A stretch of 64,000 nt of DNA from positions 11,327 to 75,326 of the forward strand of contig CAYSWQ010000001.1 in NCBI GenBank assembly GCA_964434885.1, read 5' to 3'. Positions 9,214 through 64,000 of the stretch are shown piece by piece (position 1 is the first letter of the stretch; every line of letters starts with the position of its first letter). The notes under the pieces were generated by a model. That model had not been told where the DNA came from. It made no database searches and saw only the letters and a list, made by a program, of their open reading frames with translations. Source of the stretch: an uncultured Methanosarcinales archaeon. GTDB lineage: Archaea > Nanobdellota > Nanobdellia > Woesearchaeales > GW2011-AR9. The translations under genes were made by a program, and so were the position numbers.

Positions 9214-10572
9214 TTATTTTCTTTTGATAATGATAATACTAGTGCCAATGATTATTAAAGTTAGTGCTATTCCACCAATGAGATAGTTGGGAGGAATGTT
9301 TTTTAATTCGCTGATTGTTAAACCAGTAATGAGGTTTTTATTGGTGGAAAGAGGAGATTCAACTATGGTTTTTTGAGCCAATAGTTTAGTACTAGGAATT
9401 ACTTTAAATATTTCTTGATTAACACATTTTCTTTTTTCTTCTGGTTTTTTATCCATAGTTCCACAAGCGTTTTTATCAAAACATTTTCTAACATTGTAAT
9501 TATTAGTGCAATTAGTGTCCCAGGGATAACAATACCACTTTTCTTGACAATTAGATGAATAGGTGGTTGAGACATAGTTTTGAGTGGGTGTAGAATTATA
9601 ATTTAAACTTCCTCCTCCAGAACTACTAGATGAACTTCCCGATGATGTTCCTCCTCCCGAAGATGATCCTCCGCCGGAAGAGCTACTAGAAGAAGAAGAA
9701 GAAGAGCTACTAGATGAATTGCTACTTGAACTAGAAGAAGTAGTGGTGTTGTTAACAATGACATAAATTGTTTCATTATCACTTAAATTGCCATCAGAAA
9801 CAACAAAAGTTAAATTATGAGTTCCTACTTGAGTAGAGTTAGGTAGCCAAGAAAATAATTGACTGATGAAAGTTGCGCCAGTTGGTAAGTTGATAACGGA
9901 ATAAGTAAGATTATCTGATTCATTATCTGTTGCATTGATAGTGAAATTTAAAGTGTTGTTTTCAGTGATGGTGTGGTTACTGATTGAATTTAAGATTGGA
10001 GCGGTGTTGGTTGTGTTTGTGGTGTTGGTTGTTGAATTGGTGGTGGAAGTGTTGTTGGTTAAAATAGTATTAGTTGAATTATAAGTGCAATTTTGTTTAA
10101 TCCAGTCTACACTGTCAATGTTTGTATCTTGTCCATTGGGATTTCTAGCTAGACATTCATCGGAAACATTATTTGAATTTCCATCGGGAGCATTATCTGA
10201 AGTATTGCCATCATCCCAATCAGCATAAGTAACATTATCTATCTGGTTGCTTTCGTTATCATAAAGAATTATTTGTCCATTATTATTTTGGGCCCCACTT
10301 GGATTAAGTATTGTGTAATAACTTCCTGCAGAGATTGTTCCAGAAAGAGTTTCATTTACTGGGGTGCTATCTATTAAAGCTAAAATCCAACCAGTGATGT
10401 TAATTGAAGAAGTGTTGTTGTTATATATTTCAAACCATTCATCACTTGATCCTGTTTTTCCACTGTTATCCCAATCTGTTTGTGGATCAACAACAAATTC
10501 ATTGATTAAAACATTGGCAGAAACTAAATAACACAAACATAGCAAAAATAATACTCCTATCCAAAACCTCAT
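9214..10572 (-). CDS. Surface protein: signal peptide, lamin-tail domain (LTD), He_PIG-like Ig domain, poly-Ser linker, Cys-rich module, C-terminal TM anchor
   Basis: VLINEFVVDP...EWFEIYNN is the LTD signature; APILNSISNHTITENNTLNFTINATDNESDNLTYSV is Ig-like; a 40-residue Ser/Gly run; C-terminal hydrophobic helix plus KRK; more than 30 N-x-S/T sequons. Confidence 0.6.
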   Translation of the reverse strand: MRFWIGVLFLLCLCYLVSANVLINEFVVDPQTDWDNSGKTGSSDEWFEIYNNNTSSINITGWILALIDSTPVNETLSGTISAGSYYTILNPSGAQNNNGQIILYDNESNQIDNVTYADWDDGNTSDNAPDGNSNNVSDECLARNPNGQDTNIDSVDWIKQNCTYNSTNTILTNNTSTTNSTTNTTNTTNTAPILNSISNHTITENNTLNFTINATDNESDNLTYSVINLPTGATFISQLFSWLPNSTQVGTHNLTFVVSDGNLSDNETIYVIVNNTTTSSSSSSNSSSSSSSSSSSSSSGGGSSSGGGTSSGSSSSSSGGGSLNYNSTPTQNYVSTTYSSNCQEKWYCYPWDTNCTNNYNVRKCFDKNACGTMDKKPEEKRKCVNQEIFKVIPSTKLLAQKTIVESPLSTNKNLITGLTISELKNIPPNYLIGGIALTLIIIGTSIIIIKRK

Positions 10573-56023: not shown

Positions 56024-56391
56024 TAGAGTAGAGTGGAATAAGCCACCTTCTGTCAGACCCAAAATATTCATTGAATATCGATGGTCTGTTTTAGCATTCT
56101 ACTAAGCGTGTCTAAGCACTTGCACCAACCGGGTCCAGAAAAAGCCTAAGCTTTTTAGGACCCCCGAGTTATACTCGGAGGGTTTCGCCGTTTCATCGTT
56201 CCCTTTGAGGACGTCGATGGATTAACTCGCTTATTTCTCAACAAGCTTCGCCATTTTCATTCCATAACTCAAAGGACGTGTCGTTTCTAAGCCAGAGCCA
56301 AGAGATTTCCTCTTCTCCGAAGAGCGGTCTTTGTGTGGTGGGTGGACTTTCCTCAGTCAAATTGACCGTTAGCTAAATACCACTACTACTC
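56024..56391 (-). ncRNA. rnpB: RNase P RNA (archaeal type A-like)
   Basis: Minus-strand transcript contains CR-I/P4 5' strand GAGGAAAGUCCACC and CR-V/P4 3' strand ACAGAAGGUGGCUUAU; 5' GAGUAGUAGUGG and 3' CCACUCUACUC form P1; the region is protein-free and GC-enriched relative to flanks. Confidence 0.75.
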
Positions 56392-60561: not shown

Positions 60562-61044
60562 TTAAGAAAGACTGCTTAGTTTCTTTTCGATTTCTCCAAG
60601 TTCTTTTTCCAAAGAATCTAGTTCTGGATGAACTGGTGGAGCTGGTTCTGGCTCAGGTTCTTGTTCAGGCACAGGTTCTGGCTTAGGTTCTGGTTTTGGT
60701 TTTAACTCAGGATGTTCAGCCTCAATCTCTTTCTTGATCCGACCATAGGTTCTTTCAGCTTTAAGTTTGCTTCGAGGTAACAATCTTCTTAGTTTATTGA
60801 TAGTTAATTTAATTTCTCGTAGGTCTTCTTTTAATAAACCAATGGTGAATGTTTTCTCTTCTTTAACTTTCTTGAACTCTTCATAACTTTGTAAGAATTG
60901 AATTACTTCTCGTGTTGGCTCTAAAACATTTCTACGTAACTCTACAGGATCACCCAAACCAATAAAATACGGTTCTTTTGGTTTAGCAACTGGTTTTCTT
61001 TTAGAAGTTGTTCTCTTCCGTTTGGTTGTTTTTTTCTTAGCCAT
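60562..61044 (-). CDS. Hypothetical basic/helical protein with PEPK-repeat tail (member 3 of motif-sharing triplet)
   Basis: K/R-rich N-terminus, motif PYFIGLGDPVEL, helical core, KPKPEPKPEPVPEQEPEPEP repeat, short C-terminal helix. Confidence 0.4.
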   Translation of the reverse strand: MAKKKTTKRKRTTSKRKPVAKPKEPYFIGLGDPVELRRNVLEPTREVIQFLQSYEEFKKVKEEKTFTIGLLKEDLREIKLTINKLRRLLPRSKLKAERTYGRIKKEIEAEHPELKPKPEPKPEPVPEQEPEPEPAPPVHPELDSLEKELGEIEKKLSSLS

Positions 61045-61046
61045 TC

Positions 61047-61274
61047 TTAAAATCGTTCTGGTTCATGCAATGAATTTTCTATTGTCTTGATACGATTGTC
61101 TATTTCAGCTAAAGCGCCTTGCCAACTTTGTAATTGAGCGTCTTCTTCTTGTTTTAGCTGATTGATTTTATTTAATGTTTCTTTAGCAGAAGCTAACCTA
61201 GCTTTTAGAGTAGCAGTGGTATTAATAACTTCCTCATATTCTTCAATTTTAACAAAAACAGGCATTTTTTCCAT
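61047..61274 (-). CDS. Hypothetical small coiled-coil protein (member 2 of triplet)
   Basis: 75 aa; N-terminal PVFVKIEEYEEV motif then a single long helix. Confidence 0.4.
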   Translation of the reverse strand: MEKMPVFVKIEEYEEVINTTATLKARLASAKETLNKINQLKQEEDAQLQSWQGALAEIDNRIKTIENSLHEPERF

Positions 61275-61280
61275 TTTGAA

Positions 61281-61721
61281 TCACCTTTTAAAGATTAGAT
61301 CATCCATGTATAATAATCTCTCATGGATTTTTCTTAACTCTTTTCTTAATTTTTCATAATTTTTATTTTCATTATACTCTGAATTTTCAAGTTTTTCTGT
61401 AGTTAAATCCAACTCTAAAACATGAGTCTTAATATCGCTGGCATCCTTGAGAAGTTCTTGATAAGATTGGACTCGAAGAAAGAAAGGATAATTAAGAGCA
61501 GGAGTACTCATCGTTGTTGGTTTAGGAAAACTTTTTTCTTCAGAAATTTCTGTAGGTAGTGGTTCCATGTCAGGCATCTGAGGAGGTTCCTCCAATCCAA
61601 CAGATTTTTTAATATCTTCTGGAGCAGGAATTTTACTAGTTGATTCAGGGAATTTTAACAAATCATCTGAATGTTCAGGTAAAGGTACTGTCACTTTCTT
61701 TTTTTTAAAAAACCATCCCAT
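61281..61721 (-). CDS. Hypothetical protein with disordered acidic/Pro N-terminus and helical C-terminus (member 1 of triplet)
   Basis: 146 aa; motif PFFLRVQSYQEL at the start of the helical part. Confidence 0.4.
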   Translation of the reverse strand: MGWFFKKKKVTVPLPEHSDDLLKFPESTSKIPAPEDIKKSVGLEEPPQMPDMEPLPTEISEEKSFPKPTTMSTPALNYPFFLRVQSYQELLKDASDIKTHVLELDLTTEKLENSEYNENKNYEKLRKELRKIHERLLYMDDLIFKR

Positions 61722-61820
61722 TTTATCTATTTAAAAAGAAATACTCTTATAAACTTTGTTGAGTATTTTATAATAGTAAAAATAGAAAAGTATTTATTGT
61801 GGATAAAATTCCCGTGGAAG

Positions 61821-64000
61821 ATGAGGTGGAAAGTTGTTAATTGGATTTTTTGTTTTTGGTTATTTATTCTGAGTGTTGAAGGGAGTGTACTGATTAATGA
61901 AGTTATGTATGATCCTGGGCAGTGTGCAGATAGTTATTGTGAATGGGTAGAGTTGTATAATTCAGGAAATGAAACTTTTGATTTGCAAGGTTGTTTTTTT
62001 GATGGAGATAATTTATCTGGAAACATTTCTGCTAATGAATATTTAGTTTTAGTTAGAAATAAAGATAATTTTCAAAAGTATTTTGGTGGGAATAATTTAG
62101 TTGAGATTTCTTTGAGTTTAGTTAATAAAGGAAAAGAATTGAAATTAAATGGTAATTGTTCAGATATTTTTGATTATAGTTCTTTTGTTAGTTTAGCTAA
62201 GGGTAACAACTATACTTTAGAAAGAAATAACAAAGGAAAATGGGAAAAAAGTTTAGTTGATGGTGGAACTCCGGGAAAGAAAAATAGTGTTGTTAATTTT
62301 AATCAAGATTATTCTAAATTAAAAATTACTGAGGTGATGGTTGATCCTTTTGGTAAGGATAATGAACAAAAACCACTTGGAGAGTGGATAGAAGTTTATA
62401 ATTCTGGGGGGAAACCAATTAATTTAGGTGGGTTGGTGTTGTATGATTCGGAAGATGATCACGAATTATTTATTAGTCAAAGTAATTTTGATAAAGTTGT
62501 GTTGGGTGGTGGAGAATATGGGGTAATATATAGGAACCGAGATTCAGATTTTGATTTGAGTAAAACAAAAGATAAAGTGAGGTTATATACTGGATATCCT
62601 CTTTCTAATGCGGTTTTGATAGATCAAGTTAGTCTTTCCAATTCAAAAGAAGGAATGAGTTGGAGCAAATTCGGAAATAATTGGTATCAAACTAAACCAA
62701 CTCCGGGAAAAGAGAATATTTATACAGAGAAATGTGATTGGATGATTGATTTGGAATTAGATAATTCGATCTTTCAAAATAAAGGTTTGGATTTTAAAGT
62801 TAATGTAAAAAGAAATTTTGGAGTAGAAGAAAATATTTCTGTTTCTGGTAAGATTGAAGATTTGTTTGGGAAAGTTGTAAGAAGTTATACTCCCTGGACA
62901 AATTACCGGATAGTTGGTTCTAGTAGCAAATCTTATTCTCCAAATTTAAAAGAAGGAAATTACCAATTAATTTTTGAATTGAGTGGATTGAAGTGTAATG
63001 ATTCGGAGTGGGAAAATAACCAAGTTCGTCGATTAGTTTCAATCAATCCGGCATATCAAAAAAATGATTCTAAATTGGAGATTGAGAGATTGTATTTGGG
63101 TTCGGATAATTCAGTAGAATGGGGAGATCAATTTCAAATTAAATTAAATTTGTATAAAGGACAAAATAGTAAATCTACTGTAGAGGTTTATGTTGAGAAA
63201 GACGGAGAAGTGATAAGCAAAAGAACAAAAATTAATCTGTATGATGAATATAAAAATTATCCTTTGGTTTTGCCGATACAATTAATTCCTAATTGTAATG
63301 AAAAAATAGAAGATGGAAAAGGAAAACTTGTTTTGAAAGGATTAGGTTTGGAAGTGGGAAAAGAATTTGAAATTTCGGGAGTAGATAAAGAGGTTTGTAA
63401 AGATTATTTAGATTATGTAAAAGAAGACAATAAGAAAAAAGATAAGATTCGGAAACAAAATGCTTATCAAGTTTTGGAATTTCCTAGGACCTTGTATTCA
63501 GGCGAGGTTTATTCAGTAAAAGTACAGCTTTTGGGAGATGCTGATGAACATGATTTTAAAGTTTGGAGTTATCTTTACAAAGGCAATAAATGTGTTTCTT
63601 GTTTTGGTGGAAATCGAGAAAGTAATTTAATTGATTTTAAATTGAAAGAAGATGAAGTTAAGCAAATTGAGATGTTGATTAAAGTTGATGAAGAAGTTTC
63701 AATGGGTGAGTATCGATTGAAAGTTAAGTTGAATAAAGATGGATTAAAAACAAATCGGGAGTTGATGAAAAGCGTTTATATTAAACCTAAGGATAAGAAG
63801 AAAGTAATTAATCAATCTACTTCTTTATTTGGGATCTCCGAATTGAATGATAAATCTGTGAATGAGAGAACAAGTGTTGATTCTCGGAAAGAAAAAATAA
63901 TTCATGAACTTCCTGGAATTGTGGTTTATGAATCTAGTTCGCAGAAAGCAAATAATTTAATTCCTTATTTATTGGTGGGTGTTTTTGGATTATTAAGTGT
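61821..64000 (+). CDS. Large surface protein with signal peptide and two lamin-tail domains, 3' partial (runs off the window)
   Basis: MRWKVVNWIFCFWLFILSVEG signal; LTD1 VLINEVMYDPGQCADSYCEWVELYNSG; LTD2 LKITEVMVDPFGKDNEQKPLGEWIEVYNSGG; open frame to the window end with a hydrophobic stretch (IPYLLVGVFGLLS) near the edge; not in the ORF track because it has no stop. Confidence 0.55.
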   Translation, partial: MRWKVVNWIFCFWLFILSVEGSVLINEVMYDPGQCADSYCEWVELYNSGNETFDLQGCFFDGDNLSGNISANEYLVLVRNKDNFQKYFGGNNLVEISLSLVNKGKELKLNGNCSDIFDYSSFVSLAKGNNYTLERNNKGKWEKSLVDGGTPGKKNSVVNFNQDYSKLKITEVMVDPFGKDNEQKPLGEWIEVYNSGGKPINLGGLVLYDSEDDHELFISQSNFDKVVLGGGEYGVIYRNRDSDFDLSKTKDKVRLYTGYPLSNAVLIDQVSLSNSKEGMSWSKFGNNWYQTKPTPGKENIYTEKCDWMIDLELDNSIFQNKGLDFKVNVKRNFGVEENISVSGKIEDLFGKVVRSYTPWTNYRIVGSSSKSYSPNLKEGNYQLIFELSGLKCNDSEWENNQVRRLVSINPAYQKNDSKLEIERLYLGSDNSVEWGDQFQIKLNLYKGQNSKSTVEVYVEKDGEVISKRTKINLYDEYKNYPLVLPIQLIPNCNEKIEDGKGKLVLKGLGLEVGKEFEISGVDKEVCKDYLDYVKEDNKKKDKIRKQNAYQVLEFPRTLYSGEVYSVKVQLLGDADEHDFKVWSYLYKGNKCVSCFGGNRESNLIDFKLKEDEVKQIEMLIKVDEEVSMGEYRLKVKLNKDGLKTNRELMKSVYIKPKDKKKVINQSTSLFGISELNDKSVNERTSVDSRKEKIIHELPGIVVYESSSQKANNLIPYLLVGVFGLLS

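What the first reader, a model, noticed from the sequence alone, without database searches (positions are those of the whole stretch)
61821..64000. Large double-LTD surface protein missed by the ORF track
An open frame starts at 61821 and continues past the window end, so it has no stop and is not listed. It encodes a signal peptide, two lamin-tail domains (about residues 20-60 and 170-215), long beta-rich regions with several conserved Cys pairs, and a hydrophobic stretch near the window edge. At least 725 aa lie inside the window. Together with 9214-10572, this marks the locus as enriched in adhesin-like genes.
Basis: seen in the sequence. Interest (0 to 1): 0.5.

Follow-up and report, generated by a model that had tools for sequence, protein, structure and literature searches.

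The report
Archaeal surface protein with lamin-tail domains
The open frame is a real, nearly complete gene for a membrane-anchored cell-surface protein with two lamin-tail domains, conserved across one group of tiny (DPANN) archaea; it is an ordinary but uncharacterised family member, not a giant or variable adhesin.

Summary
The frame from 61821 is open to the window end (726 codons). An identical public contig shows the stop only 8 codons further on, so the protein has 734 aa.

Its parts, in order:
- signal peptide
- two Pfam LTD domains (aa ~20-145 and 163-292), each above Pfam's gathering score
- three CARDB/Ig-like beta-sandwiches with Cys residues that are gained and lost strictly in pairs
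- a disordered linker
- a conserved juxtamembrane motif (VVYESSSxKA..LIPY)
- a C-terminal TM helix followed by KKL

No catalytic domain was found.

It belongs to a large family. The C-terminal module alone matches 732 representative clusters. Full-length relatives occur only in Woesearchaeota/Nanoarchaeota MAGs, in a conserved genomic slot, usually directly upstream of an MJ0538-family gene.

Features expected of a variable adhesin are absent: there are no tandem repeats, and the gene has zero nucleotide differences across five assemblies. The claimed "adhesin-rich locus" is two LTD genes 51 kb apart.

A few family members, including one positional ortholog, carry a staphylococcal-nuclease domain. 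That hints at extracellular nucleic-acid handling, but the LTDs are strongly acidic.

Verdict: a real, non-catalytic surface binding or structural protein with unproven function; a new member of a known kind; low to moderate interest.

The parts
61722..61820 (.). 99-bp AT-rich intergenic region shared with the divergently transcribed 146-aa gene (61281-61721, minus strand). It holds GTGG/GGAAG just upstream of the ATG.
   Evidence: Sequence read directly. The same ~96-99 bp divergent spacing occurs in relatives L007 and L009.
61821..64000 (+). Coding sequence of the LTD surface protein: codons 1-726 of 734, cut by the window end.
   Evidence: Open frame. The full gene lies on the identical contig at L001:7697-9901.
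61821..61883 (+). Signal peptide, aa 1-21 (MRWK + hydrophobic core + VEG|S).
   Evidence: Hydropathy. AF2 predicts a helix at aa 2-16. Family members have equivalent hydrophobic N-termini ending just before the INEVMY motif. No signal-peptide predictor was available, so cleavage is inferred.
61884..62255 (+). LTD1, aa ~22-145 (lamin tail domain, beta-sandwich).
   Evidence: Pfam PF00932 at 47.4 bits against a gathering score of 34.3. AF2 strands span aa 23-143 with pLDDT ~90.
62307..62696 (+). LTD2, aa ~163-292 (lamin tail domain).
   Evidence: Pfam PF00932 at 49.3 bits, covering model positions 4-106 of 109. AF2 strands span aa 167-291.
62733..63050 (+). D3, aa 305-410: CARDB/Ig-like beta-sandwich with the invariant pair C305/C392.
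63063..63386 (+). D4, aa 415-522: beta-sandwich. Invariant C492 pairs with C526.
   Evidence: AF2, conservation, and presence in all architecture variants.
63387..63458 (+). Lys/Asp-rich helix, aa 523-546, partly low-confidence. C526 lies at its start.
   Evidence: AF2 predicts a helix at aa 523-546 with pLDDT <50 for aa 534-544. This region is poorly conserved.
63465..63788 (+). D5, aa 549-656: beta-sandwich with a C591-x-x-C594 pair (present in 33/40 members, always together).
   Evidence: AF2 and Cys pairing.
63789..63905 (+). Disordered, poorly conserved stalk or linker, aa 657-695.
   Evidence: pLDDT <50 for aa 660-704. This is the least conserved region: mean top-residue frequency 0.25, 14% gaps.
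63906..63956 (+). Conserved juxtamembrane motif, aa 696-712 (G-x-VVYESSS-x-KA-x-x-LIPY).
   Evidence: Family consensus and C-terminal tails. A local HMM of the C-terminal 31 aa finds no other copy in the window.
63957..64000 (+). C-terminal transmembrane helix, aa 713-731, cut by the window end. The basic tail KKL and the stop lie 8 codons beyond the window.
   Evidence: Kyte-Doolittle maximum of 2.14 at aa 713-731. AF2 predicts a helix at aa 706-725. Full sequence from L001.

Best explanation
This gene encodes a Sec-exported, type-I membrane-anchored, non-catalytic cell-surface protein of a marine Woesearchaeal (DPANN) archaeon.

Shown here: after removal of the signal peptide, the ectodomain is a string of five beta-sandwich domains. 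Two acidic lamin-tail domains form the membrane-distal head. Three disulfide-stabilised CARDB/Ig-like domains form a stalk. A flexible ~45-residue linker, a conserved juxtamembrane motif, one TM helix and a short basic cytoplasmic tail (KKL) follow.

Inferred: the D4-D5-linker-TM module is a family-wide anchoring scaffold, and the LTD head is the working part, a binding module held some distance from the membrane. The likeliest job is capture or tethering of an extracellular polymer or envelope partner rather than catalysis. The top candidate context is extracellular nucleic-acid handling, because some family members, including one positional ortholog, carry a staphylococcal-nuclease domain on the same scaffold.

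Rough likelihoods: exported and membrane-anchored topology ~0.9; non-catalytic binder or structural element ~0.75; specifically linked to extracellular nucleic acid ~0.3.
For: Topology: N-terminal hydrophobic segment and C-terminal TM helix plus KKL. Cys residues are gained and lost strictly as pairs in 40 homologs, as expected for extracytoplasmic disulfides. N-glycosylation sequons occur in at least half of the members at four alignment columns.

No catalytic family: no catalytic-domain or defence-family hit in Pfam, NCBIfam or PADLOC.

Scaffold idea: residues 415-726 alone match 732 representative clusters, always at the protein's C-terminus. A census of 232 such proteins shows variable heads (1-3 LTDs, with or without D3, with or without SNase) on a constant D4-D5-anchor.

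Nucleic-acid link: 5 of 232 members carry SNase (PF00565). One of them, P0072 (LTD-SNase-LTD-D4-D5-anchor), sits in the same genomic slot, followed by MJ0538 and ScpB. More distant LTD hits combine LTD with the OB-fold PF01336. In the literature, deleting the LTD of the ExeM nuclease lowers its in vitro activity (PMC6085458). The LTD+thermonuclease lipoprotein Hvo_1477 is reported as important for extracellular DNA metabolism in Haloferax (PMC3929857). DPANN archaea have been proposed to use extracellular DNA or nucleosides (PMC7414124).
Against: No ligand or binding was tested, so function rests on architecture and on rare domain fusions (about 2% of members).

Both LTDs are strongly acidic in every one of 40 homologs (mean net charge -13.6 and -16.0, never positive). 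That argues against direct electrostatic DNA binding by the LTDs, and any binding would need cation bridging.

In ExeM the LTD was dispensable for DNA degradation in vivo.

The window contains no nuclease-bearing paralog or other member of the scaffold family.

Two of the three SNase-bearing proteins whose contigs were examined are not in the syntenic slot.

The tight, conserved pairing with a cytoplasmic MJ0538-like gene is not explained by this model.

Signal-peptide cleavage was inferred, not predicted with a dedicated tool.
Confidence: 0.5

Rival explanations
1. Partner-cell adhesin: the LTD head binds the surface of a host or partner cell and attaches the small DPANN cell to it.
For: The ectodomain is made only of Ig-like, CARDB-like and LTD beta-sandwiches on a stalk, the usual build of adhesins. 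The organism belongs to Woesearchaeota/Nanoarchaeota, a group generally thought to depend on other cells (established knowledge; PMC6142677 was listed but not read). The structural neighbour RbmA is a biofilm matrix scaffold.
Against: There are no tandem repeats. There are no nucleotide differences among five assemblies. Length and architecture are conserved, with 41% mean column identity over 40 members. The gene keeps a fixed position among core genes across the order. In L007 it is 51% identical, comparable to its cytoplasmic neighbour MJ0538 at 50%. Host-specific adhesins are expected to diversify faster and to vary between strains.
Confidence: 0.25
2. Envelope (S-layer-like) structural protein: many copies anchored by the C-terminal TM helix form the outer canopy of the cell, with the acidic LTD head making lateral contacts.
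Confidence: 0.2
3. Spurious open frame or pseudogene fragment at the contig edge.
For: The frame runs off the window and so lacks a visible stop. The genome is AT-rich, at 31.5% GC.
Against: An AT-rich genome makes a 726-codon stop-free frame very unlikely by chance. The identical gene, with its stop, is called in several public assemblies. There are 155 homologs with E<=1e-3. The AF2 fold is confident.
Confidence: 0.01

Closest known systems
Database entries annotated 'lamin tail domain-containing protein' from Candidatus Woesearchaeota / Nanoarchaeota MAGs (e.g. P0008, P0009, P0017, P0037)
   Same: Full-length homologs at 41-50% identity covering 97-100% of the query. They have the same length (~716-746 aa) and the same Pfam content, and related loci show the same synteny.
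   Different: None in kind; this is the marine-lineage ortholog. These entries are automatic annotations. My searches found no paper describing the family.
LTD-bearing extracellular nucleases: Haloferax volcanii Hvo_1477 (SNase + LTD lipoprotein) and Shewanella ExeM (LTD + OB-fold + EEP nuclease)
   Same: Secreted, membrane-tethered proteins that carry an LTD. Some members of the present family carry SNase on the same scaffold, one of them in the same genomic slot. Literature.
   Different: The window protein has no nuclease or OB domain. It is anchored by a C-terminal TM helix rather than a lipobox (Hvo_1477). It has two LTDs plus three CARDB-like domains.
Archaeal S-layer / cell-surface glycoproteins such as Haloferax volcanii csg (PDB 7ptp)
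   Different: No sequence relationship was detected. No PGF-CTERM signal was found. Lattice formation and abundance are unknown. LTD domains were not looked for in csg.
CARDB domain proteins (e.g. Pyrococcus furiosus PF1109, PDB 3idu)
   Different: There is no Pfam CARDB (PF07705) sequence match. The similarity is at fold level only, at 16% identity.
Eukaryotic nuclear lamin tail (Ig-fold) domain
   Same: It shares the Pfam LTD profile PF00932.
   Different: Here the domain is extracytoplasmic, duplicated, acidic and in an archaeon. Nothing indicates a nucleoskeletal role.

Membership tests
Lamin Tail Domain (Pfam PF00932) | Profile-HMM match above Pfam's gathering score (34.3 bits) | tested here: met
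   The whole protein scores 89.1 bits with two stretches. Each half alone scores 47.4 and 49.3 bits.
Lamin Tail Domain (Pfam PF00932) | Ig-like beta-sandwich fold of ~110 residues | tested here: met
Woesearchaeal LTD / beta-sandwich / C-terminal-anchor family (unnamed) | Full-length collinear homology, including the D4-D5 module and the VVYESSS..LIPY-TM-KK tail | tested here: met
   40 members align end to end with 41% mean column identity. C-terminal tails are conserved. Residues 415-726 match 732 clusters, always C-terminally.
Woesearchaeal LTD / beta-sandwich / C-terminal-anchor family (unnamed) | Invariant Cys pairs C305/C392 and C492/C526 | tested here: met
   All four Cys are present in the window protein and in 40/40 members.
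Woesearchaeal LTD / beta-sandwich / C-terminal-anchor family (unnamed) | Genomic slot: divergent from a trio of small genes and upstream of MJ0538-like (then ScpB, GyrA) | tested here: met
   The window and L001 show the same order as relatives, with one extra 198-aa ORF inserted before MJ0538 in this lineage.
LTD-bearing extracellular nucleases (ExeM/NucH type, Hvo_1477 type) | A nuclease domain (EEP, SNase or metallo-beta-lactamase) in the same polypeptide | tested here: not met
Archaeal S-layer glycoprotein (csg-like, archaeosortase-processed) | PGF-CTERM or a related archaeosortase sorting signal | tested here: not met
   NCBIfam scan of the full 734-aa protein at E<=10 gave no hit. The tail is a plain TM helix plus KKL preceded by a different conserved motif.
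Archaeal S-layer glycoprotein (csg-like, archaeosortase-processed) | Forms the paracrystalline outer lattice and is among the most abundant proteins | not testable with these tools
   No expression, proteomic or imaging data were available.
Repeat-variable / phase-variable adhesins | Intragenic tandem repeats or between-strain length or sequence variation | tested here: not met
   TRF finds only a 15-bp AAATT run. Four assemblies show 0 nucleotide differences, and a fifth shows 0 differences outside an N gap.
CARDB domain (Pfam PF07705) | Profile-HMM match to PF07705 | tested here: not met

The most novel reading that the evidence does not exclude
The conserved, operon-like pairing of this LTD surface-protein gene with a cytoplasmic MJ0538-family gene (often followed by ScpB and GyrA) across Woesearchaeota, together with nuclease-bearing positional orthologs, reflects a lineage-specific surface apparatus. 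It would be built on lamin-tail domains and would either form the main envelope canopy of these archaea or capture extracellular nucleic acid for nucleotide scavenging. In either case it would be an undescribed role for prokaryotic LTDs.
Probability: 0.12. Interest if true: 0.6.

Novelty: new member of a known kind. Interest (0 to 1): 0.25.

Why it matters
DPANN archaea such as Woesearchaeota have tiny genomes and are generally thought to depend on other cells or on scavenged building blocks. How their cell surface is built, and how it captures resources, is largely unknown. This protein is one of the few surface proteins that is conserved across the group and held in a fixed genomic position. 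That makes it a reasonable candidate for a core envelope or capture function, and a concrete target for expression, binding assays or cryo-ET. For this window, the practical result is more modest. The 'missed' ORF is a normal, already catalogued gene cut 8 codons short by the window edge, and it does not mark an adhesin island.

Tried and rejected
- NCBIfam found no family for either the partial or the full protein, and PADLOC found none.
- A profile of the 40-member alignment found no solved structure by sequence.
- The afdb50 library was not available.
- The apparent 706-aa 'strain variant' (P0001/L002) is a run of N in the signal-peptide region, not biology.
- D3, D4 and D5 show no sequence similarity to each other or to anything else in the window, so they are not recent internal repeats.
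- Direct DNA binding by basic LTD surfaces looks unlikely, because both LTDs are uniformly acidic.
- The MJ0538-like neighbour was checked as a possible surface partner and rejected. It has no hydrophobic segment (maximum KD19 <=1.45), and it has a soluble ~130-aa core with an optional winged helix. It has no NCBIfam, PDB or literature assignment.
- Literature searches for LTD with DPANN, archaea or Woesearchaeota, for Woesearchaeota S-layers and for MJ0538 found no study of this family.
- The sigma-70 promoter and terminator scan was not run, because the organism is an archaeon.
Full report
OBSERVATION. Translating 61821-64000 on the + strand gives 726 codons without a stop. The ORF tool omits it only because it does not list ORFs that run off the source. 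I looked up the neighbouring complete gene (61281-61721, minus strand) in public assemblies. This returned contigs that extend past the window. The last 3 kb of the window are identical, with 0 mismatches, to JGI contig Ga0115649_1000889 (L001) and to two other contigs. On L001 the gene is 734 codons long and ends ...NNLIPYLLVGVFGLLSVLLGWKKL*. The window therefore lacks only 8 codons, and the 'hydrophobic stretch near the window edge' is a C-terminal transmembrane helix followed by a basic tail. The only other in-frame start upstream is TTG at 61797, and public gene calls use the ATG at 61821.

DOMAINS. Pfam LTD (PF00932) matches twice. Each half submitted alone passes the gathering score of 34.3 bits: aa 20-109 scores 47.4 bits and aa 163-271 scores 49.3 bits. 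Nothing in Pfam or NCBIfam matches aa ~290-734.

STRUCTURE. An AlphaFold2 model built on a 40-sequence family alignment is confident, with mean pLDDT 84.6. It shows, in order:
- an N-terminal helix at aa 2-16 (the signal peptide)
- two beta-sandwiches at aa 23-143 and 167-291 (the LTDs)
- three more beta-sandwiches at aa 305-408, 418-521 and 549-655
- a partly low-confidence Lys/Asp-rich helix at aa 523-546
- a disordered stretch at aa 660-704
- a terminal helix at aa 706-725

EXTRACYTOPLASMIC LOCATION.
- Hydropathy finds exactly two hydrophobic segments, one at each end of the protein.
- C305/C392 and C492/C526 are invariant in 40 homologs. C591/C594, C35/C40 and the 229/232 pair are present or absent strictly together, the pattern expected of disulfides.
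- Four alignment columns carry N-x-S/T sequons in at least half of the members.
- Cleavage of the signal peptide is inferred, because no dedicated predictor was available.

ORGANISM. The window encodes PCNA, Sec61-beta, NAC, RNase J and SecDF (Pfam labels) and an archaeal RNase P RNA at 56027-56387 on the minus strand. Its GC content is 31.5%. Homologs of the LTD protein are labelled Candidatus Woesearchaeota or Nanoarchaeota, and the nearest non-identical ones (66% identity) come from TARA mesopelagic data. In a scan of GTDB species representatives, matches covering the whole protein occur in Woesearchaeota, Nanoarchaeota and Nanoarchaeia MAGs, plus some assemblies with generic or automated labels ('archaeon', 'uncultured Methanosarcinales archaeon'). 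Matches to the LTD part alone extend to Patescibacteria, Poseidoniales and others.

FAMILY. There are 155 homologs at E<=1e-3. The top ~50 are full-length, at 700-780 aa. Forty of them align end to end with 41% mean column identity and few gaps. The least conserved parts are the signal peptide, the helix region and the stalk. The juxtamembrane motif G-x-VVYESSS-x-KA-x-x-LIPY, the TM helix and the basic tail are conserved.

Residues 415-726 alone match 732 representative clusters (507 at E<=1e-10) in a 1.84-billion-protein library, always at the C-terminal end of the target. Pairwise comparisons and a census with local HMMs of 232 such proteins show a constant D4-D5-anchor with variable heads:
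- LTD-LTD-D3, the query type and the commonest, with 63 proteins
- LTD-D3, with 49 proteins
- LTD-LTD
- LTD-LTD-LTD, in which a third LTD replaces D3 (P0045)
- heads that include a staphylococcal-nuclease domain, in 5 proteins (about 2%)

The census used HMMs built from the query's own subfamily, so divergent domains may be under-counted.

CONTEXT. The gene is divergently transcribed, across a ~99 bp spacer, from a trio of small genes with no family assignment (146, 75 and 160 aa). It lies upstream of MJ0538-like, ScpB, GyrA and a THUMP methyltransferase, with RNase J and PCNA on the other side. Relatives at 46-51% identity keep this order.

A local tblastn of the window's neighbours against 42 related loci shows that the LTD gene is followed on the same strand by the MJ0538-like gene in about 33 of them. 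These include distant ones where no other neighbour is recognisable. In 22 of the 29 loci where both genes could be delimited, the gap runs from a 35-nt overlap to 151 nt of spacer. In the window's own lineage a 198-aa ORF is inserted between the two genes. In L007 and L008, 2.3 kb carrying two opposite-strand genes is inserted. Strict co-transcription is therefore not obligatory.

The MJ0538-like protein is soluble, with a conserved ~130-aa core and an optional C-terminal winged helix. It has no functional assignment in NCBIfam, PDB sequences or the searchable literature. I cannot explain this pairing.

- Tandem repeats: none, apart from a 15-bp AAATT run.
- Strain variation: 0 nucleotide differences among four assemblies. 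A fifth assembly is identical outside a run of N, which caused a shortened 706-aa gene call.
- 'Adhesin-rich locus': local HMMs of each domain find only one other LTD-bearing frame in the 64 kb, at 9214-10572. That protein does have an N-terminal LTD (50 bits) and a C-terminal TM helix plus KRK. Otherwise it is different: it is Asn/Thr-rich and sequon-dense, with a poly-Ser tract and a Cys-rich module. It lies 51 kb away. Two LTD genes that far apart are not a cluster.

MECHANISM. The shown facts are an exported, disulfide-stabilised, C-terminally anchored protein with five beta-sandwich domains and no catalytic domain. It is conserved as a positional ortholog across an archaeal order. From this I infer that D4-D5-linker-TM is an anchoring scaffold and that the LTD pair (with D3) is a distal binding head.

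The best functional lead is extracellular nucleic-acid handling:
- P0072 has the same scaffold with SNase inserted between the LTDs. It sits in the same slot, followed by MJ0538 and ScpB.
- More distant LTD proteins combine LTD with an OB-fold domain.
- In the literature, LTDs accompany extracellular nucleases. Deleting the LTD of ExeM lowers its in vitro activity (PMC6085458). Hvo_1477 is reported as important for extracellular DNA metabolism in Haloferax (PMC3929857; PMC5118699).
- DPANN archaea have been proposed to use extracellular DNA or nucleosides (PMC7414124).

Evidence against this lead:
- Nuclease-bearing members are only ~2% of the census.
- Two of the three SNase-bearing proteins whose contigs were examined are not in the syntenic slot.
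- In ExeM the LTD is dispensable in vivo.
- Both LTDs are strongly acidic in all 40 homologs, with mean net charge -13.6 and -16.0. That makes direct electrostatic DNA binding unlikely.

The acidic ectodomain and the overall design fit an S-layer-like envelope protein equally well. A partner-cell adhesin cannot be excluded, but the lack of variability speaks against a host-specific one. I put the nucleic-acid-related reading at about 0.3, the adhesin reading at about 0.25 and the structural reading at about 0.2. Confidence is high only in the topology and in the non-catalytic nature.

COMPARISON AND NOVELTY. Homologs are already in public databases, auto-annotated as 'lamin tail domain-containing protein', and the exact protein is called on JGI and ENA contigs. 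My searches found no paper that characterises the family. It passes the membership test for the LTD family and for the unnamed Woesearchaeal scaffold family. It fails the defining features of LTD nucleases (no nuclease domain), archaeosortase-processed S-layer glycoproteins (no PGF-CTERM-type signal), repeat-variable adhesins and, at sequence level, CARDB. It is a new member of a known kind.

VERDICT. Interest is low to moderate at 0.25. The gene itself is ordinary. The conserved LTD-gene/MJ0538 pairing and the modular nuclease-bearing orthologs are the only features that might repay further work.

Noticed in passing
L001:6115-6735 (minus strand, just beyond the window) and loci L007-L048: The LTD surface-protein gene is followed on the same strand by an MJ0538-family (PF27325) gene in about 33 of 42 related loci. 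In most of the 29 loci where both genes could be delimited, the gap runs from a 35-nt overlap to ~150 nt of spacer. This holds even where all other synteny is lost. The MJ0538-like protein is soluble (a ~130-aa core with an optional winged helix) and uncharacterised. Why a cytoplasmic protein is so tightly linked to a surface protein is unexplained.
   Followed up: partly
window 60562-61721 (minus strand): ORFs 61281-61721, 61047-61274 and 60562-61044: A trio of small genes (146, 75 and 160 aa) with coiled-coil and Pro/Glu-rich segments and no Pfam or NCBIfam family. It is transcribed divergently from the LTD gene and keeps this position in relatives (25-63% identity).
   Followed up: partly
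window 9214-10572 (minus strand): A second, unrelated LTD surface protein of 452 aa. It has a signal peptide, one LTD (50 bits), a region extremely dense in N-x-S/T sequons, a long poly-Ser/Gly tract, a Cys-rich module, and a C-terminal TM helix plus KRK. There is a weak hint (E 0.97) of a GGIII-CTERM-like tail.
   Followed up: partly
window 56027-56387 (minus strand): Archaeal RNase P RNA (RF00373; 105.5 bits against a gathering score of 84). ARAGORN found no tRNA genes in the whole 64 kb.
   Followed up: no
L002:~9850 (ENA SUTE22-1 scaffold_251), protein P0001: A 10-base run of N inside the signal-peptide coding region makes the public gene call start late, giving 706 aa instead of 734. This is an assembly artefact that could be mistaken for a strain variant.
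   Followed up: yes
L007:13803-17660 and L008:7258-11115: In a related lineage the syntenic GyrA gene carries an intein with a LAGLIDADG endonuclease (1285 aa versus 851 aa in the window lineage). In L007 a DDE transposase sits between the small-gene trio and RNase J.
   Followed up: no
Loci L017, L020-L022, L029, L035, L036, L038, L040: Several species-representative assemblies titled 'uncultured Methanosarcinales archaeon' carry this Woesearchaeota-type gene, and most of them also carry the downstream MJ0538-like gene. This suggests mislabelled taxonomy in those automated records.
   Followed up: no
L001:6932-7528 (minus strand, just beyond the window): A lineage-specific 198-aa ORF with no family hit is inserted between the LTD gene and the MJ0538-like gene. 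tblastn found it in none of the 42 related loci.
   Followed up: no
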